Source of the DNA: a virus
Strand: one strand, 5' to 3'
DNA length: 64,000 nucleotides
IMG/VR virus record: IMGVR_UViG_3300044911_002386
Coordinates: 1-64,000 of that record
A program made the translations under genes and the position numbers. Positions 1,905 through 34,022 of this stretch are shown here, one piece after another. Within the stretch, counting starts at the first letter, position 1; each line of letters opens with the position of its first letter. The notes under the pieces were generated by a model. It did not search any database, was not told where the DNA came from, and saw only the letters and a program-made list of their open reading frames with translations.

Positions 1905-2033
1905 TGTTGCTTTTTATTTCCTGTTCAAAAGCCACAGTATCACTAACAGCCCGCCCGCTGAGATACAGCAGTGCGTCACGTCAACCAATGTCATATATGC
2001 CTCGCGATCATAACTAAAACGTCAGCCTCCGAA

Positions 2034-2103
2034 AACTAGTGGCGGGAATCGAACCCGCGACCTGCCGATACAATCCGGCGCTCTACCACTGAGCTACACT
2101 AGT
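2034..2103 (-). tRNA. Aberrant tRNA with shortened anticodon arm, identity undetermined
   Basis: ACTAGTG-TA-GCTC AGTGGTA GAGC-GCCGG ATTGTA TCGGC-AGGTC-GCGGG TTCGATT CCCGC-CACTAGT; acceptor, D and T arms are canonical, but the anticodon loop is 6 nt and base 26 is missing. Confidence 0.75.
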
Positions 2104-2106
2104 TGT

Positions 2107-19893: not shown

Positions 19894-22800
19894 TTAGTCT
19901 CCGATCCCGACCAACTTCCGTTCTTGCTGCATTGCGTTTCTGAGGAAACGCACAATTTGCGGCAAGCACTTCGCGACATCGTTGACAAACACAACGTGCT
20001 TGTCGCCATACTGTCGCTTAAAAGCACCCTGCTGCGTACCGTGCACGCCAACAGCGAACGCATATGTGCTGATCTTGAGGCGCTCACGTGTGAATTTGCA
20101 CACGCTCGTGACATGCTTTTCAGCAGTTTCACCGCCGTAGCCAGAACCAGCTGGCAAACCGTCGGCAATTACAAACAAGTACTTCTTTTTAGCCTGATCC
20201 TCTGACAGCCGTTTTGCTACATCTTTGATAGCGTAGCCGTCGTAATTGTTGGAATGTGCACGAATACCGCCGAGCCTGGTTAAATTTTCACCGTCGCGCG
20301 GCGTATAGTGCTCAAAAATAGTCATTGAGTCGGCACCAAACTCATTAGCAGTGTGACCGTAAACATACAAACGCACTCCCGCGATCTTTCTGACCGCCTC
20401 GGCGAGCATAATGCAGATGTCACGGGCACTGTTGATTTTGGGGCCTGACATGCTACCAGACTGGTCAACGAGTAAACCGACTGCCACGTCGGGCAGTTTG
20501 CTTATCGTCTTTTGCGACCAGATATGTTCGCAGTCGTAATCCAACTTATGCAGGCTGCCCTCGTCGAGATCGCCGGACAATAAGCCGTGAACTTCAACGC
20601 TGCGGCGGCCCGCCTGGAACTGCAATGCACTCCGAATACGTGCAATAGCGTTTTTGTTTTTCGTACGTACGATTTGCACAGTCTTTTGGCTGTCACCGAG
20701 GCGACCACTTTCTTCGCGCACCCGTGCCTTTGGTTTTGTAGAATCGCTGTTGTTTAAATACGCAACATACTCTTCTTCTTGGGCGTTGCTGGCCTCGTCA
20801 TTAACGTGACCGATAGCGTCGCCAGTCAAAACCTTGGTCTTAGCCTCAACCTTTTCGCCGAACAAACCACCGTCAACCGGACTAAATGCCGCATGTGCGG
20901 CCCCCATCTTTTCATTAACGTTTTCCGCGGTCTTTTCTGCAGCACTGCTGTCTTTGGCGGAACCCCTGAGCGTATTCAATGCCCGAATTAACTTTTCCAT
21001 CGTATCTAGGTCGAGCTTGGGCGCGGCTATCGCGTTACGGCGCTCTATCGGTTCCAGCCCGCTTAACTTTGACAGAAAGCCGCCCGACAGCGTCTCAAGC
21101 AACTGTGCGAGAAATCCAACGTCGGAGATTGCCTCGTGGCCCATGGTATTTTCTACGGCCACGGGCACAGCCGCTGATTTAGGCAGGTCATCATGTTGCA
21201 TCGCCTGGCTCAACTCGCGAACCAAGTTCCGCAGCAGTCCACTAGTGTGCAACTCATAGTTGTCATAAAACGTATGTGCAGCACGACTATTAAGTGCCGA
21301 CATTACGGATCTGACTGCGTTAAGCTGTGTTACCAGTTTGTCTGACGTACGACACTCCGCGACAAGATTCTCAGAATGCTCGATGCGCGGCAGATTGTCT
21401 TTGATTGTCTGAATATAAGTGGAAACACCCTCAATAAGTTTATTTAACAACGCTGTTGCACACACTTTTTCGCCGTGTAACGTGGGGCCGGCCGCAACGT
21501 CATTTCGCAGTTTTTCAAGTTTTGCTTGAATCTCTACGAACTTTTCTCGCTGGGTTTCAAAATGAGTTTTTGCCCCGTGAATTGCCTCTTGAACTTCTGT
21601 CTTGTTTGGGCCGTGAAGCGTCTTAGCTGCGGCTTTTGCCTTTTTAACAAGATCTTCTAGCAGGCTTTGGACTTTTTCGACGTCCTTTTCGGTCGGCGCT
21701 GTACTCATTAATTCGGCGTGCAGTTTATCGAGATTCGGTACAAACTCGCGAGCTTCTGCCACACCCGCTTTTTCCAAAGCCTCTATTGCCTGCGGCCGAG
21801 CCTGCAGCGCGTAGGCTATTTGATGCCGCAGCGTGTCAACGGTTGAACGCTTGGCGGCGGGGGTGAGATGCTCGTCGGCACAACTAGACTTAACACTTTC
21901 AAGCTGCTTATCGAGCGACTTAATCGCTTTGATTAACTGCTCAATAGACTGCTCACCACGCGCCTTGCTGCCTGCCCGTGCCAACAATTCTTCTTGCTCG
22001 TTGCTTTTTGCCAACCCGTTGCGCTGCTGCTCTGCAATATCGCCCATACCCTCGCCGAGACAGGTCAGCATATCCTTCATTGCACTGGCACCAGTACTCG
22101 TCTTACTCTGCTCTTCTTGTGCCTGCTTGAACATATCCTGCAGGGCGTTTTCAATATCGCCTGCGGGGGCATCTTCGTTTTCTTTATGCAACAAATCGCT
22201 GATGTCGTGTACAAGCTTCTGACACGTCTCAAGCAAGTTTGCCGGCTCGACCTCGGCACCCAAATGCTTTGACGCGAGTTCGGCTACTTGCTCTGGAATG
22301 GCTAGCGGGTCCTCATCAGCGATCATGTTGTAAGCCAGCCGGCCTACAATCGCTTCTAACGACGGTTCTGCCTTTTCCAGGTTTTCACGTACCGTAATAA
22401 ACTTTTTCGCGTGACGCACGAAGTAGGGCGCGAAACCACCCCAGTCTGACACCACCGTACGGCGAGCCAGCCGCGTGAGCATGCTTTTTGCAAGCATTCC
22501 AGCCAGGTAGTACTCGGTTGTAGCGAGTGCCATTTTCTTGGCGTCTAACTTGCTAAAATTTGCGTCATTTGCGAAAAATTCTTTGGCCGCGTGAAAGCCA
22601 ATCAATTGCAGACCTGTGCCGTTAATTGGTCCCAGCACGTCAGGAGTGATATCCTGCGAAATCTGCACACGAAGCAATACAAACCCTGTAAGTGCGTCGA
22701 CAATCGCGTCTTCGACTTCGGCCGTATCGCTCGCCAGCAGGTCGTCGGGCGACACAAAAACGACACGCTGTTTGTTGTCGTTTAATGCGTCGGTGACGCC

Positions 22801-23316
22801 GTTGCTGTCAGAGCCCTGGCTAAACTGCACAGCAAATGACGTCTTATTTTGACCAGTCTTATCGACAATCGTATTGGCACTGCGTGTCAGGTTGCGCAGT
22901 GCACGGATCGCCTTGTTCTGTGCGTCGCTGTCTGTACCGTAAGCAAATGACGTACGACTAGAAAACGTCGAACGAAACAAGCTAGAAGGCGAGTAATCGA
23001 CATTGCGACTATATCGAAAACTGTTTCGGCGATACCAGTCCATGTCCGAATCGTCAAACGACTCGCTGTAACTGTAGCCGCTGTATCCGTATCCGCCGTA
23101 ATCAGAACCCGCGCGATCATCGGCAGCATAATCGCCGTAAGAGGAATAACCGCCTGACTTTTCAGTGTGAAAACCAATTGGTCCGTGTTCGTCGCCGTCG
23201 TCTTCAATAGATCGATAATCTGGATTTGGCCGAGGACCGCGAGGCTTCTTAGCCTCGTCGGTATCCTTTTCGGCTTCGTAGTTGCCCCACAGAGACTTCC
23301 ACTTTTTATCTGCCAT
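19894..23316 (-). CDS. Large vWA-domain protein (CobT/NorD-like), partner of the AAA+ ATPase
   Basis: SGDLDEGSL, MIDAS DQSGSM, NYDG, IADGLP; central coiled coil; Tyr/Ser/Gly-rich N-terminus. Confidence 0.9.
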   Translation of the reverse strand: MADKKWKSLWGNYEAEKDTDEAKKPRGPRPNPDYRSIEDDGDEHGPIGFHTEKSGGYSSYGDYAADDRAGSDYGGYGYSGYSYSESFDDSDMDWYRRNSFRYSRNVDYSPSSLFRSTFSSRTSFAYGTDSDAQNKAIRALRNLTRSANTIVDKTGQNKTSFAVQFSQGSDSNGVTDALNDNKQRVVFVSPDDLLASDTAEVEDAIVDALTGFVLLRVQISQDITPDVLGPINGTGLQLIGFHAAKEFFANDANFSKLDAKKMALATTEYYLAGMLAKSMLTRLARRTVVSDWGGFAPYFVRHAKKFITVRENLEKAEPSLEAIVGRLAYNMIADEDPLAIPEQVAELASKHLGAEVEPANLLETCQKLVHDISDLLHKENEDAPAGDIENALQDMFKQAQEEQSKTSTGASAMKDMLTCLGEGMGDIAEQQRNGLAKSNEQEELLARAGSKARGEQSIEQLIKAIKSLDKQLESVKSSCADEHLTPAAKRSTVDTLRHQIAYALQARPQAIEALEKAGVAEAREFVPNLDKLHAELMSTAPTEKDVEKVQSLLEDLVKKAKAAAKTLHGPNKTEVQEAIHGAKTHFETQREKFVEIQAKLEKLRNDVAAGPTLHGEKVCATALLNKLIEGVSTYIQTIKDNLPRIEHSENLVAECRTSDKLVTQLNAVRSVMSALNSRAAHTFYDNYELHTSGLLRNLVRELSQAMQHDDLPKSAAVPVAVENTMGHEAISDVGFLAQLLETLSGGFLSKLSGLEPIERRNAIAAPKLDLDTMEKLIRALNTLRGSAKDSSAAEKTAENVNEKMGAAHAAFSPVDGGLFGEKVEAKTKVLTGDAIGHVNDEASNAQEEEYVAYLNNSDSTKPKARVREESGRLGDSQKTVQIVRTKNKNAIARIRSALQFQAGRRSVEVHGLLSGDLDEGSLHKLDYDCEHIWSQKTISKLPDVAVGLLVDQSGSMSGPKINSARDICIMLAEAVRKIAGVRLYVYGHTANEFGADSMTIFEHYTPRDGENLTRLGGIRAHSNNYDGYAIKDVAKRLSEDQAKKKYLFVIADGLPAGSGYGGETAEKHVTSVCKFTRERLKISTYAFAVGVHGTQQGAFKRQYGDKHVVFVNDVAKCLPQIVRFLRNAMQQERKLVGIGD

Positions 23317-23319
23317 TAA

Positions 23320-24783
23320 TTAGGCTCCCTTGCTGGTCGCCGCCGCCTGGGCCGCGATCAGGTCACCAAACTTGCCCTGAATAATGCTCTGCACCTTGAC
23401 GCGCTCGGAATCGTCGTCGCCTTCGGGAGAGAAATGGTTTGTGATTGTAAACTGCAGGGTGTCAACGCCGCCCAGCACAAAGTCGTGGGCTGCCGCGATC
23501 AACTGCCGGGTAGACAGGCTTTCCGTCAGCGTAGCCGACAGTCCAGTCGAATCTTGCCGGATCTTGTTAGCCATCTGTACGAGCCGCGACGCAATGTCCT
23601 TGGTTACGCCAGTACGGTTAACAAGCAACTTTACCTCGTCGCTTTCGGCAAGATACGTCAGTTCGACGGCACGCGGGAAACGATCTCGAATCGCACGGTC
23701 GAGTGCCGACGTACCGGTATAGCCGGCGCCCTCGTTCATCGACGCAAAGAACACCGTACCCGGCCCGACGATGATCTTGTCGCCCTTCTCCTCAAGGTAT
23801 GTAAACCGGCGGGCGTCCAGAATCGGCATCAACGTATTGAGCAGATTCGGATTTGCACGGTTAAGCTCGTCGAGCAGGATGACGTGGTTGCCGTTCTGCA
23901 CCGCACGCACAAACTGCGACTCATGCCAGAACACGGTGCCCTCGCGGGCAGACTTGTACCCGAACCAGTCGCGAGCCTCACGGAGATTAGCGCAGTCCAT
24001 GATCAGCAGCGGCCGATCGTGTCGGGCTGCAAACTGGATGGCCAGTTCAGTCTTACCGCAACCATGTGGTCCGATAAGATTAACATTTTGCGGGCACTTT
24101 TTGCTGGACGTTTCCAGAATTCCAAACAGGCGCTCGATTTGCGGGTTAATGATGTACGTCGTGTCAGACTTCGGATAAAAGACGCCGTGCTCTTCGTCCT
24201 TTTCCTTTTCGGCTTCCGCACTAACCACACCGAGCTTTGGAGACTCCTTGGTCATCCGGGCGAAGCCGTAATCGTTACCCGCAACCGGCGTTCCAAACGA
24301 CATTTCGGCCGCCTTCTCTGCGGCGGCAATTGCCTTGGGGTGACCGTTAATGAACCAGCCGTACTTTCGCTCGTTCATGATCGAGTTCACAGCCCGCTTG
24401 TTCAAGTTAATAACAGCCACTGCACGACCCATCCAGTCAGAACCTGGGCAGCCGTCGGCAGCGTTGAATTCGTCTACAAGTGCCTGAAGGGAGTTACGCT
24501 GTTTCTCCCACATCGAGCCGGACAGCGTATCGATCATCGCGACGAGCACGCCATAGGCGACCGATTCGCCGGACACTGCGTCGCTATCAGAGGCAGACCC
24601 GTTCTCGATTACCCAGTCCTTTAACTTCTTGGCAGTCGTGCCTTCAGCGCTGATAAGTTCGTTTGGAACAACGCTGACAGCCACTTCAATATCTTCGCGG
24701 TTATAGTGATTCGCGGCCATACGACCACGGTTGCTCGGCATAAAACCAACAGCGTCAGCGTCTTCGTTCACGTACAGGTACAT
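23320..24783 (-). CDS. MoxR/CbbQ/CobS-family AAA+ ATPase
   Basis: Walker A GPHGCGKT, Walker B ILLDELNR, ASMN, LDRAIRDRF, STR. Confidence 0.93.
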   Translation of the reverse strand: MYLYVNEDADAVGFMPSNRGRMAANHYNREDIEVAVSVVPNELISAEGTTAKKLKDWVIENGSASDSDAVSGESVAYGVLVAMIDTLSGSMWEKQRNSLQALVDEFNAADGCPGSDWMGRAVAVINLNKRAVNSIMNERKYGWFINGHPKAIAAAEKAAEMSFGTPVAGNDYGFARMTKESPKLGVVSAEAEKEKDEEHGVFYPKSDTTYIINPQIERLFGILETSSKKCPQNVNLIGPHGCGKTELAIQFAARHDRPLLIMDCANLREARDWFGYKSAREGTVFWHESQFVRAVQNGNHVILLDELNRANPNLLNTLMPILDARRFTYLEEKGDKIIVGPGTVFFASMNEGAGYTGTSALDRAIRDRFPRAVELTYLAESDEVKLLVNRTGVTKDIASRLVQMANKIRQDSTGLSATLTESLSTRQLIAAAHDFVLGGVDTLQFTITNHFSPEGDDDSERVKVQSIIQGKFGDLIAAQAAATSKGA

Positions 24784-31283: not shown

Positions 31284-31547
31284 CTAAGTGGTTTCGTAAT
31301 CTTTGAAGTCGTAATTTGACTTCTGTTCTTTAATAGTCAGTTGCCGTTTGGGGTATTTTTCCGGGTGGCATACCTGACAACGAGCTCGGGCGCAGCCAGC
31401 ACAACGTAAAGACTTTCTGAATCGACCGGCTTCTACTTCTGGCCAATTTCCGATTAAAGACCAAAGTAAGTGCCGGCGCAACTTAGCGCGATTTTCTAGA
31501 ATGTGCTTTTCTTCGTGATAGCGTTTCATTTTTAACTCCGTGTACAA
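31284..31547 (-). CDS. Small basic Cys-rich protein
   Basis: CAGCARARCQVCHP; start may be 31529. Confidence 0.65.
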   Translation of the reverse strand: MYTELKMKRYHEEKHILENRAKLRRHLLWSLIGNWPEVEAGRFRKSLRCAGCARARCQVCHPEKYPKRQLTIKEQKSNYDFKDYETT

Positions 31548-31578: not shown

Positions 31579-32271
31579 TCAGACCTTGACGAGCGACTTC
31601 GAAGCACGACGCTTCTTCATCGCAGCCTCAGTGGGCTCTTCGCCGTACACGGCACTCATGCCAGGCGTGAGGCAATCAGCCGTGAAGCGCCCGAACCTAG
31701 GCCGCCACTCGCACAGGCCGCACATCGTGCCCGCTTTCTTGATCCAGCGATCAAGTTGGGCAAAATTGATGATTGAGTCCTCGAACGAAATCGACACAAC
31801 AGCCGACCAGTCATGGAAGATTGGCCGAGTCGAGACGACGCGAGACTGCTGCCGCGCCACCAGCGTGGTGAACCGGAAACCTTCGGCTTCCGGAGTCGGG
31901 CGGGGCGACGTGTCTTCAAACATTGCTTCCGGCTCGCGCGGACCGGCGTACTCTAACTTAAAGAATCCCGGGGGCGCCGCGAACACAGCGCACTTGGCGA
32001 GCTGGCCTTCCTTGGTCTTTCGAGCCGCGGCGTTAATCGCTGCTACGATGGTCGCACCGGGCAGTACGGGACCCAACTCCTCGTGCATATGCAGGCTGCC
32101 GAGGAACTCAATATGCCCCATCTCGATGTGGTCGGCGTCGGTCTTGACGCGCTTCGAACTGACGCTCTTGAGCGCCTTAGAGAACTTGTTCAGCGGGTTT
32201 GCCATCTGAACGTTTTTCACAACCATCGGGCCGTCCCCGGTGATCTTGTAATCAACATTAACCCAACTCAT
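31579..32271 (-). CDS. Cas7/RAMP-like RRM-fold protein, putative effector for the adjacent GGY-NN array (Vipr-like)
   Basis: N-terminal YKITGDGPMVVKN strand, VLPGATIVAAI helix, SRVVSTRPIFHDW, C-terminal Gly-rich loop AGTMCGLCEWRPRFGRF; ATGA-coupled to the HNH gene. Confidence 0.75.
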   Translation of the reverse strand: MSWVNVDYKITGDGPMVVKNVQMANPLNKFSKALKSVSSKRVKTDADHIEMGHIEFLGSLHMHEELGPVLPGATIVAAINAAARKTKEGQLAKCAVFAAPPGFFKLEYAGPREPEAMFEDTSPRPTPEAEGFRFTTLVARQQSRVVSTRPIFHDWSAVVSISFEDSIINFAQLDRWIKKAGTMCGLCEWRPRFGRFTADCLTPGMSAVYGEEPTEAAMKKRRASKSLVKV

Positions 32272-32585
32272 TGATCTATGTCCTTCCGTTGATGAATCGT
32301 GGGAACAATGTAATTACAGCCCAAGTCTTTGTTTTTGTAGCGACGAGCTCGTATTACATTTGTTATTGCTTCGTGACACTCGCTGCATAGCGTAATTAAA
32401 TCTTTTTCGACATCCTCTTCGCCAAACCGTTCATACGTCTTGTGATGCACTTCGAGCTGATATACAGATCCGTCGTGCAAACACGTTTGGCATTCATAGT
32501 TGTCAATCACTAGACGTTGCGTGCGCTTTTCACACCAGTCATATCTGGCCATGCGCACGGCATAATTTAACGTCGTTGAATCCAT
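32268..32585 (-). CDS. HNH endonuclease
   Basis: W..KR..RL..DNYECQTC...LEVHHKTY...DLITLCSECH; AGGGG RBS. Confidence 0.88.
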   Translation of the reverse strand: MDSTTLNYAVRMARYDWCEKRTQRLVIDNYECQTCLHDGSVYQLEVHHKTYERFGEEDVEKDLITLCSECHEAITNVIRARRYKNKDLGCNYIVPTIHQRKDIDQ

Positions 32586-32596
32586 TTGTTACCCCT

Positions 32597-32629
32597 GGTT
32601 TATGTGTAGTTTCCGCAGCACATAAAACC
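32597..32629 (-). other. Hairpin at the 3' end of the array, just upstream of the HNH RBS
   Basis: Plus strand GGTTTATGTG...CACATAAAACC inverted repeat. Confidence 0.5.
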
Positions 32630-33457
32630 GCAACCTACCCTAATTGTTTTGAAAGAAAAAACCAAACCCAACGTCACCCTGCGTTACCTTACCGGACGTT
32701 ACCCGACCTTACCGGACCATATTTTGTTTGAAAGAAAAAACCAGACCTGACCAAACCCCAGCTTATGCCACCCCACCGAGCCAAACCCTATTTTGTTTGA
32801 AAGAGAAAACCAGACCTTACCGTGCCTGACGTTACGCTACCGAACCAGACCGCACCCTAAATTGTTTTGAAAGAAAAAACCGAACCAAACCCAATAGCGC
32901 CATGCGTTACCGAACGAAATCAAACGTTGCCAAAACAGACACTACCGAACCGTACCGGACCTAACGCAAATTATTTGAAAAAACCATACCGAAAGCTACC
33001 GGACAAAACGCAACGATACCGGACCTGACCGCAAAATTTTGAGAAGAGAAAACCAAACAAAACCGAGCCTAACGATACCCTGCCGTACGCTTGTTGAGAA
33101 AAAAACCATACCTGACCTGATCCCGCCATACCGTACCATGCCGTACCGGACAAGACCCTACACGACGTTACAACACCTTATATGTTTGAAAGAAAAAACC
33201 AGATCTGACCAAACCCCAACTTACCCTGCCCCACGCTACAGTTTTGAAAAAGAAAAACCCTGCCACACCGTACCAAACCTAACCCGACGGCATTCGACCG
33301 AAGCTAACCACAAAGTTTTGAAAGAAAAAACCATACCCGATCGAACGTTACAACACCTCACGTCACCAGACCCGACCTAACGATAAAGTTTTGAAAGAAA
33401 AAACCTAACCTTACGCCGCCATACCGAGCCGGACCTGACCTTACGCCAGCCGACCAT
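32624..33457 (-). repeat. Non-coding array of 11 GGY-NN pentamer units separated by a conserved U-rich delimiter; putative guide-RNA array
   Basis: Plus-strand delimiter TTTGAAAGAAAAAACC or variants at 32648, 32727, 32796, 32866, 32974, 33038, 33093, 33185, 33243, 33317 and 33390, followed by 11, 9, 9, 17, 9, 7, 14, 8, 10, 10 and 10 in-phase NN-RCC pentamers (hand count); strand inferred from flanking genes. Confidence 0.92.
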
Positions 33458-33949: not shown

Positions 33950-34022
33950 AGCCGGCGGCGGGAGTCGAACCCGCAACCTACTGATTACAAATCAGTTGCG
34001 CTGCCAATTGTGCCACGCCGGC
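33950..34022 (-). tRNA. tRNA-Thr(TGT)
   Basis: GCCGGCG/CGCCGGC acceptor; ACTGA-TTTGTAA-TCAGT; GCGGG-TTCGACT-CCCGC. Confidence 0.95.

What the first reader, a model, noticed from the sequence alone, without database searches (positions are those of the whole stretch)
31579..33457. Candidate RNA-guided system: GGY-NN pentamer array, HNH nuclease and Cas7/RAMP-like protein
Seen: an ~830-bp gene-free array of 11 units sits just upstream of two coupled genes. On the minus strand each unit reads (NN-GGY)n then TTTTTCTTTCAAA; for example AT GGT CG GCT GG CGT AA GGT CA GGT CC GGC TC GGT AT GGC GG CGT AA GGT TA GGT. By hand count there are 114 pentamers. Of these, 72 have an exact GGY, all keep the pyrimidine, and none breaks the 5-nt phase within a unit. 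Established: Cas7/RAMP proteins have an RRM fold with a C-terminal Gly-rich loop and polymerise on guide RNA with a fixed periodicity. The 230-aa protein shows that motif layout. Inference: one subunit binds each pentamer through the GGY scaffold and displays NN for target pairing, and the U-rich delimiter splits the transcript into 11 guides. No cas1/cas2 or palindromic repeat is present, so this is not CRISPR. From memory it matches the description of recently reported phage VIPR systems (RAMP-like protein plus GGY/NN RNAs). I cannot verify that here, so novelty may lie mainly in this locus architecture.
Basis: partly seen in the sequence, partly recalled or inferred. Interest (0 to 1): 0.96.

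Follow-up and report, generated by a model that had tools for sequence, protein, structure and literature searches.

The report
Phage VIPR guide-RNA system with HNH
This is a real example of the recently described VIPR system (a small Cas7-like protein plus guide RNAs built from five-base repeats) in a large lake phage, paired with an HNH nuclease. At least two of its eleven guides spell genes of a small mobile element that lives in Planctomycetota chromosomes.

Summary
On the minus strand, 32647..33457 carries 11 units and 124 in-phase NN-GGY pentamers. Of these, 83 have an exact GGY and all 124 keep the pyrimidine. Each unit ends in a U-rich tail (TTTTTCTTTCAAA) that occurs nowhere else in the 167.8-kb phage record.

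The 230-aa protein is a Vipr: phmmer E 2.6e-26 to PDB 36pp 'SUSP1 Vipr protein', and family profile E 5e-56. The 105-aa HNH gene overlaps its start by 4 nt. An HNH sits directly upstream of vipr in 41 of 84 related loci, which form one clade separate from the published type II exemplars.

Under the published 1-nt-skip rule, guide 11 matches 24/24 and guide 2 matches 21/22. Both sites are in frame with the skipped base at the wobble position. Both lie in one integrative element (DNA polymerase A plus integrase) of Planctomycetota genomes. Other skip lengths and shuffled guides give chance scores, and there is no self-target. Nine guides have no target yet.

VIPR was published in 2026 preprints, and this scan has already met HNH-linked VIPR loci on other DNA, so this is a new member of a known kind. 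What it adds is modest: a nuclease-linked VIPR on a true phage, a short unstructured tail, and a satellite-like target in a distant phylum.

The parts
32647..33457 (-). vrRNA array: 11 units, each a short leader, then 8-18 NN-GGY pentamers, then a U-rich tail
   Evidence: RNA folds worse than all 200 shuffles (z +2.5). No Rfam ribozyme or other family.
33403..33457 (-). guide tract 1 (11 pentamers)
   Evidence: no target found
33330..33384 (-). guide tract 2 (11 pentamers). Its NN string matches 21/22 in the 78-aa gene of the Planctomycetota element.
33257..33311 (-). guide tract 3 (11 pentamers)
   Evidence: no target
33198..33237 (-). guide tract 4 (8 pentamers). It shares its 3' half with guide 10.
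33105..33179 (-). guide tract 5 (15 pentamers)
33052..33091 (-). guide tract 6 (8 pentamers). It is related to a guide of the syntenic phage contig L085 (13/16).
32983..33032 (-). guide tract 7 (10 pentamers)
32879..32968 (-). guide tract 8 (18 pentamers). It is homologous to a guide in L085 (25/32 NN bases).
32809..32858 (-). guide tract 9 (10 pentamers)
   Evidence: no exact target in IMG/VR
32740..32789 (-). guide tract 10 (10 pentamers)
32661..32720 (-). guide tract 11 (12 pentamers). Its NN string matches 24/24 in the 261-aa gene of the Planctomycetota element.
32597..32646 (-). degenerate terminal unit (3 pentamers) and a hairpin (about 32597..32629) between the last tail and the HNH ribosome-binding site
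   Evidence: the only stable helix in the centroid fold
32268..32585 (-). 105-aa HNH nuclease, the accessory (Vap-like) gene, overlapping vipr by 4 nt
   Evidence: Pfam HNH E 2.6e-8. PHROG HNH families. C32, C35, H47, H48, C67, C70 and H71 kept in at least 90% of 37 distinct homologues. Directly upstream of vipr in 41 of 84 loci.
31579..32271 (-). vipr: 230-aa RAMP (Cas7-like) protein that binds the pentamer repeats
   Evidence: PDB 36pp SUSP1 Vipr E 2.6e-26, profile E 5.3e-56. AF2 pLDDT 90.7. Foldseek best hits Csm3/Cas7. phrog_4652 E 1.3e-43.

Best explanation
The locus is an HNH-associated VIPR system carried by a large tailed phage of lake Planctomycetota.

1. The minus strand is transcribed through the array (inferred).
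2. Vipr protomers coat each run of NN-GGY pentamers, one protomer per pentamer. They hold GGY and present the NN bases (shown for the SUSP1 homologue, inferred here).
3. The U-rich tails stay bare and mark where the transcript is cut into 11 guides of roughly 50-100 nt (inferred; the cutting enzyme is unknown).
4. Each filament reads double-stranded DNA two bases on, one base off.
5. At least guides 2 and 11 read the first genes of two operons in a roughly 8-kb integrative element of the host. These are a 78-aa gene and a 261-aa gene that heads the DNA polymerase A operon. The phage would thereby block that element during infection, as SUSP1 does to its satellite.
6. The coupled HNH most likely cuts the bound DNA (inferred, least certain step).
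For: Family membership:
- Sequence homology to the solved Vipr.
- RAMP fold.
- The SUSP1 contacts for G2 and Y are kept: R138, W178 and R179 correspond to R149, W189 and R190 here.

Array:
- Strict 5-nt phase.
- RNA selected to be unfolded.
- Tail motif unique to the array.
- Same-strand arrays lie beside vipr in most of 80 viral loci.
- Relatives L001, L002 and L085 have the same array-HNH-vipr layout and a similar tail.

Targets:
- Guide 11 has 2 exact 24-base hits in metagenome contigs.
- Guide 11 scores 19-24/24 across the gene family, and guide 2 scores 18-21/22.
- A guide of relative L085 hits the same 261-aa gene at 22/26.
- All of this holds only with a 1-nt skip. Skips of 0, 2 or 3 nt and 60 shuffles stay at or below 18 (guides 2 and 11) or 21 (L085 guide).
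- Sites are in frame and the skipped base is the wobble base. The exact hits differ from each other only at wobble bases.
- Both guides read like the sense strand, so they cannot pair with the mRNA.
- There is no self-target.

Element and host:
- The element's gene order includes DNA_pol_A, HTH_17 and Phage_integrase.
- It occurs in Planctomycetota MAGs.

HNH:
- It tracks a Vipr clade rather than the terminase.
Against: - Nothing here shows transcription, processing, RNP formation or cleavage.
- Nine of the 11 guides have no target in what I could search.
- The element shares no detectable gene with the phage. It has no capsid-related gene that I could see, so 'satellite' is an analogy.
- The host is inferred only from where the targets live.
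- The two SUSP1 residues that read G1 (H17, D177) are K19 and E188 here, so repeat reading may differ in detail.
- The published type II systems silence without a nuclease.
Confidence: 0.8

Rival explanations
1. Same VIPR system, but it only silences. The HNH does not cut the target. Instead it matures the array transcript or helps DNA binding, as the non-enzymatic Vap1 does in type II.
For: Type II VIPR represses transcription without a nuclease, and Vap1 is required in vivo. The short bare tails need some processing activity, and no ribozyme is present. Both target sites sit early in operons, where a roadblock would be enough.
Against: The catalytic His and the zinc ligands are conserved across 37 homologues. 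HNH domains are typically DNA nucleases (established knowledge). The discovery paper reads nuclease-bearing VIPR types as target-destroying.
Confidence: 0.3
2. The targeted element is not a parasite of the phage. It is a host island that harms the phage, for example by carrying or triggering defence, and the phage shuts it off as counter-defence.
For: In one genome the element lies beside BREX genes. Most of its small genes have no known function.
Against: The BREX genes lie outside the integrase-bounded module. No defence family was recognised inside the element. The element has its own polymerase, an excisionase-like HTH and an integrase, like a self-mobilising replicon.
Confidence: 0.2
3. 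The HNH gene is an unrelated homing or packaging endonuclease that happens to sit next to vipr and near the terminase.
For: HNH genes are common in phages. Terminase large subunit lies about 2 kb away.
Against: The HNH is directly upstream of vipr in 41 of 84 loci from unrelated contigs, and those loci form one Vipr clade. Terminase is nearby only in this phage's own relatives. The two genes overlap by 4 nt.
Confidence: 0.03
4. The pentamer tract is inert repetitive DNA, or a CRISPR-like array.
For: None beyond its repetitiveness.
Against: The phase is perfect over 124 units. The partner protein is conserved. Targets match under one specific rule. There is no Cas1 and no palindromic repeat.
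Confidence: 0.01

Closest known systems
VIPR systems, type II exemplars: Escherichia phage SUSP1 and the Pseudomonas fulva prophage (bioRxiv 10.64898/2026.04.26.720920, .720927, 10.64898/2026.10.15.759431; PDB 36pp)
   Same: - Homologous Vipr protein (33% identity, E 2.6e-26).
- Guides of about 8-18 NN-GGY repeats on the vipr strand.
- 1-nt-skip targets in coding DNA, with the skip at the wobble base.
- No self-targets.
- Phage-borne and aimed at a resident integrative element.
   Different: - The accessory gene is a 105-aa HNH upstream of vipr. Type II has a DNA-binding Vap1 downstream.
- All 11 guides sit in one upstream array.
- The 3' tail is a 13-16-nt unstructured U-rich stretch, not a pseudoknotted tail.
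- The G1-contact residues H17 and D177 are K19 and E188 here.
- Vipr carries a 9-residue insert and a basic C-terminal extension of about 30 residues.
Nuclease-bearing VIPR types (III-V) of the discovery preprint. The HNH Vap is most likely type III. I infer this from the text and the legend of fig. S21, because the figures and tables were not available.
   Same: A Vipr protein coupled to an HNH-domain accessory protein.
   Different: The preprint describes types III and V as enriched in cellular defence islands and aimed at viruses, with single guides or ribozyme-separated arrays. This system is on a large phage next to its terminase. It has 11 guides separated by short U-rich linkers with no ribozyme. 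It is aimed at a chromosomal element. I could not place this protein on their tree.
Class 1 CRISPR backbone proteins Cas7/Csm3
   Same: RRM core, thumb hairpin and Gly-rich loop. Foldseek best hits are Csm3 chains with probability 1.0. The protein polymerises on guide RNA.
   Different: Sequence identity is about 10% and TM-score about 0.4-0.5. There is no CRISPR repeat, no Cas1 and no Cas6-type hairpin. Periodicity is 5 nt with 2 bases read, rather than 6 nt with 5 read.

Membership tests
VIPR | A Vipr protein homologous to characterised Vipr | tested here: met
   phmmer E 2.6e-26 over residues 7-204 to PDB 36pp_D. Profile of 27 homologues E 5.3e-56.
VIPR | RAMP hallmarks: RRM core, thumb, Gly-rich loop, and the GGY-contact residues | tested here: met
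   AF2 pLDDT 90.7 with a beta-hairpin at 133-152 and a loop at 185-195. Csm3/Cas7 are the best folds. R149, W189 and R190 are conserved. H17 is K19 and D177 is E188 here.
VIPR | vrRNA genes made of tandem YNNGG pentamers (9-16 per guide) on the vipr strand | tested here: met
   11 tracts of 8-18 pentamers. Y in 124/124, G2 in 111/124, G1 in 92/124.
VIPR | An invariant 3' tail after each repeat tract | tested here: met
   TTTTTCTTTCAAA-type tail after all 11 tracts, unique to the array in the genome and similar in L001, L002 and L085. It is short and unstructured, unlike the SUSP1 pseudoknot tail.
VIPR | A conserved accessory (vap) gene | tested here: met
   HNH directly upstream of vipr in 41 of 84 loci, forming one clade.
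VIPR | Natural targets that fit the 1-nt-skip rule, with the skip at the wobble base and no self-target | tested here: met
   Guide 11 24/24 and guide 2 21/22. Skips of 0, 2 or 3 nt and shuffles give 18 or less. No self-target. Nine guides remain unassigned.
VIPR | vrRNAs are expressed and co-purify with Vipr, and the complex binds DNA | not testable with these tools
   Needs small-RNA sequencing, pull-down and binding assays.
VIPR type III (HNH Vap) | Placement in the type III clade of the published Vipr tree, with its vrRNA architecture | not testable with these tools
   Supplementary tables and figures are not held. Only the HNH partner could be checked.
CRISPR-Cas | Cas1/Cas2 adaptation genes and a repeat-spacer array | tested here: not met
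   No Cas1 in the 167.8-kb record, with the control positive in 7 of 14 genomes. The array has a 5-nt period and no 25-40-nt repeats.

The most novel reading that the evidence does not exclude
A true phage carries a nuclease-armed VIPR that destroys, rather than merely silences, a satellite-like integrative replicon of Planctomycetota. It uses a guide array processed at short bare U-rich linkers by a route different from the published tail or ribozyme architectures. That would show that nuclease-coupled VIPR is also a weapon between mobile elements and not only a host defence.
Probability: 0.3. Interest if true: 0.6.

Novelty: new member of a known kind. Interest (0 to 1): 0.45.

Why it matters
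VIPR is months old, and its biology rests on two enterobacterial and Pseudomonas examples. This locus gives an independent, sequence-only confirmation of the 1-nt-skip, wobble-skipping code, in a distant Vipr branch and a distant host phylum.

It shows the phage-versus-resident-element pattern outside E. coli. It also places an HNH-coupled system on a genuine large phage, whereas the discovery paper links nuclease-bearing types to host defence islands.

The guide-target pairs link this uncultured phage to Planctomycetota. They also provide ready-made substrates for testing whether the HNH cuts.

Tried and rejected
- **Exact NNx scans of IMG/VR.** Guides 1, 3, 9 and 11, a guide 8 / L085 consensus, and the guide shared by L001 and L002 gave no hit.
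- **Guide 1 in Planctomycetota genomes.** Allowing 3 mismatches in 251 genomes gave 2 hits against 2 in the reversed control, which is chance.
- **Relatives' guides against this phage.** 204 guides from related loci scored no better than shuffles.
- **G1 degeneracy.** I asked whether the K19/E188 substitutions explain the relaxed G1 (74% G). Loci with H/D residues span 59-100% G, so there is no clear link.
- **Promoters and ribozymes.** No sigma-70-type promoter, and terminator-like sites at chance level. No Rfam family in the array.
- **MegaBLAST against phage GenBank records.** No near relative. The baseplate protein also found nothing.
- **Function of the 261-aa target protein.** No Pfam, PHROG or PDB sequence match. 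The AF2 model has pLDDT 68.7, and Foldseek gives only weak OB-fold/SSB-like rows at E about 0.3, too weak to use.
- **Defence-system library.** PADLOC gave only generic HNH hits.

Full report
**1. The observation**

Read on the minus strand, 32647..33457 is cut by eleven delimiters of the form T4-7 C T3 C A3-4. I anchored the reading frame at the 3' end of each unit. The tracts then contain 11, 11, 11, 8, 15, 8, 10, 18, 10, 10 and 12 pentamers, 124 in all.

| Pentamer position | Content |
|---|---|
| 1-2 (NN) | all 16 dinucleotides used |
| 3 (G1) | G in 92, C in 23 |
| 4 (G2) | G in 111 |
| 5 (Y) | pyrimidine in 124/124 |

Exact GGY occurs in 83 pentamers. Strong 5-nt G periodicity occurs nowhere else in the window. 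No second array exists in the 167,811-bp record. The tail motif TTTTTCTTTCAAA, allowing one mismatch, occurs seven times in the genome, all inside the array.

The array RNA folds worse than all 200 dinucleotide shuffles (z +2.5). That is what one expects of RNA meant to lie extended in a protein filament. It matches no Rfam family, so no ribozyme separates the units.

**2. The proteins**

The 230-aa product of 31579..32271 has no Pfam family. It matches phrog_4652 (E 1.3e-43). It also matches chain 36pp_D of the Protein Data Bank, 'SUSP1 Vipr protein', at E 2.6e-26 over residues 7-204. A profile of 27 homologues reaches E 5.3e-56.

The AlphaFold model is confident (pLDDT 90.7). Its best structural neighbours are Csm3/Cas7 backbone subunits.

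The cryo-EM preprint names the SUSP1 residues that hold GGY. Through the alignment they map as follows:

| SUSP1 residue | Contact | Here |
|---|---|---|
| R138 | G2 | R149 (kept) |
| W178 | G2 | W189 (kept) |
| R179 | Y | R190 (kept) |
| H17 | G1 | K19 |
| D177 | G1 | E188 |

G1 is the least conserved repeat position here (74% G). However, loci with the H/D pair show a similar spread, so I draw no conclusion from this.

The 105-aa product of 32268..32585 is an HNH nuclease (Pfam E 2.6e-8; several PHROG HNH families). Its stop codon overlaps the vipr start (ATGA). In 37 distinct homologues, the two CxxC pairs, the HH pair and the final H are each kept in at least 90%.

**3. Comparative evidence**

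A scan of IMG/VR found 483 relatives of the protein. I kept the 80 best loci.

- Most carry GGY-pentamer arrays next to vipr, almost always on the same strand.
- A homologue of the small HNH lies directly upstream of vipr in 41 of 84 loci.
- On a midpoint-rooted tree these loci form one large clade that contains the window. The other clade lacks the HNH and holds the type II exemplars: a SUSP1-like Felixounavirus, the P. fulva-like LESphi2, and a Gordonia phage. In those, vipr is followed by a DNA-binding Vap1.
- The terminase is nearby only in this phage's own relatives, so the HNH belongs to VIPR and not to packaging.
- The closest relatives (L085/L086 at 75% Vipr identity on a 196-kb syntenic contig; L001/L002 at 67%) share the order array-HNH-vipr and a similar tail (TTTTATTTTCAAAC). 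Their guide sets differ, with a few shared or diverged guides.

**4. What is known**

VIPR was described in April 2026, with further preprints in October.

- It consists of a Vipr RAMP protein, an accessory vap gene, and vrRNAs of 9-16 YNNGG repeats plus a 3' tail.
- DNA is read with a one-base skip after every two bases.
- Seven types are defined. Types III-V carry nucleases or helicases, and types III and V are said to be enriched in defence islands.
- From the text and the legend of fig. S21, the HNH Vap is most likely type III. The figures and tables are not held, so I could not place this locus on their tree.
- This scan has already reported VIPR loci, including HNH-linked ones, on other DNA.

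**5. Targets**

I converted each guide to an NNx pattern.

- *Self-targets.* There is none in the phage's own genome. Only the trivial 3-nt-skip self-match appears.
- *Exact scans of IMG/VR.* These found nothing.
- *Guide 11 in metagenomes.* Its 24 specified bases gave two exact hits in metagenome contigs. The collection's size in bases is not given. On a rough assumption of about 5e11 bases, roughly 0.003 hits would be expected by chance (my estimate).
- *The hit sites.* Both lie in the same gene family, on GC-rich contigs (63-67% GC), at the peptide IPNRKPNKSEWF. The site is in frame with the skipped base at every wobble position. The two sites differ only at three wobble bases.
- *The gene family.* It has about 290 members. 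In genome assemblies it occurs in 12 loci. Eleven are labelled Planctomycetota, Pirellulales or Planctomycetia, several of them from lakes.
- *Gene order of the element*:
  - a 300-383-aa gene
  - a 78-aa gene
  - a 135-aa gene
  - a 99-aa gene
  - the 261-aa target gene
  - a 161-aa gene
  - DNA polymerase A
  - a 138-aa gene
  - an HTH_17 (excisionase-type) gene
  - a tyrosine integrase
- *All guides against 197 kb of these loci.* Guide 11 scores 19-24/24 in 21 loci. Guide 2 scores 18-21/22 at the peptide IYRLDEVKARM of the 78-aa gene. One guide of relative L085 scores 22/26 in the 261-aa gene on the other strand. Sixty shuffles of each guide reach at most 17, 18 and 21. Skips of 0, 2 or 3 nt give 15-19.
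- *Position.* Both window sites lie early in genes that follow intergenic gaps, so they head two operons.
- *DNA, not mRNA.* Both guides read like the sense strand, so they cannot pair with the mRNA. This fits DNA targeting.
- *Limits.* The element shares no detectable gene with the phage and carries no GGY array. Its 261-aa protein remains of unknown function. Nine guides have no target yet. Guide 1 was at chance in 251 Planctomycetota genomes.

**6. Reading**

Membership in VIPR is as firm as sequence analysis allows. The most likely working is this. The array is transcribed with the upstream genes. Vipr then coats the pentamer tracts, and the bare U-rich tails are cut by an unknown RNase. 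The filaments bind the host-resident element at the head of its regulatory and replication operons. The HNH then either cuts the bound DNA or has a supporting role.

Published work on the SUSP1 homologue shows the filament, the code and the silencing. What I show here is the homology, the architecture, the clade-wide HNH link and the guide-target matches. Transcription, processing, cleavage and the satellite nature of the target are inferred.

**7. Verdict**

This is a clear, well-supported new member of a known, very recent class. Interest is moderate. It offers an independent check of the code in a distant branch, a nuclease-linked system on a true phage, a simpler tail, and a host link for an uncultured phage.

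Noticed in passing
L007:5697-6146, L009:5691-6194, L012:5703-6134, L017:5625-6146 and about 20 further loci: In most HNH-linked relatives, the HNH reading frame runs 115-145 nt past the vipr start codon in another frame and ends at a similar place each time. In the window and its closest relatives the overlap is only 4 nt. This could be a real dual-coding stretch or an effect of the conserved vipr N-terminus.
   Followed up: partly
L085:1478-3022 (and L086): The syntenic 196-kb relative has a 514-aa gene with a faint GmrSD_N match, inserted between the GNAT gene and the array. The window has no such gene, so this spot looks like a swap site for conflict genes.
   Followed up: no
window 33198..33237 and 32740..32789 (-): Guides 4 and 10 share their last five or six NN pairs (13/16 overall). 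They may be a duplicated and diverged guide, or aimed at two variants of one site.
   Followed up: partly
window 31284..31547 (-): An 87-aa ORF with a Cys-rich motif lies directly after vipr. It is conserved in L003 (39% identity), and an 83-aa gene sits at the same place in L085. It matches no family, and any link to VIPR is unknown.
   Followed up: no
window 2033..2104 (-): ARAGORN calls a tRNA-like gene with an irregular anticodon loop (anticodon reported as 'tg'), next to a tRNA-Gln. A tRNA-Thr lies at 33950..34022, just upstream of the GNAT gene and the array.
   Followed up: no
L089:1-5236: In one assembly labelled Chitinophagaceae, though the element family is otherwise in Planctomycetota, the targeted element is integrated next to BREX genes (BrxB, BrxC/PglY, a methyltransferase).
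   Followed up: no
window 19894..24783 (-): The phage carries CobT-like and CobS/porphyrin-biosynthesis-like ATPase genes, as seen in other large phages.
   Followed up: no
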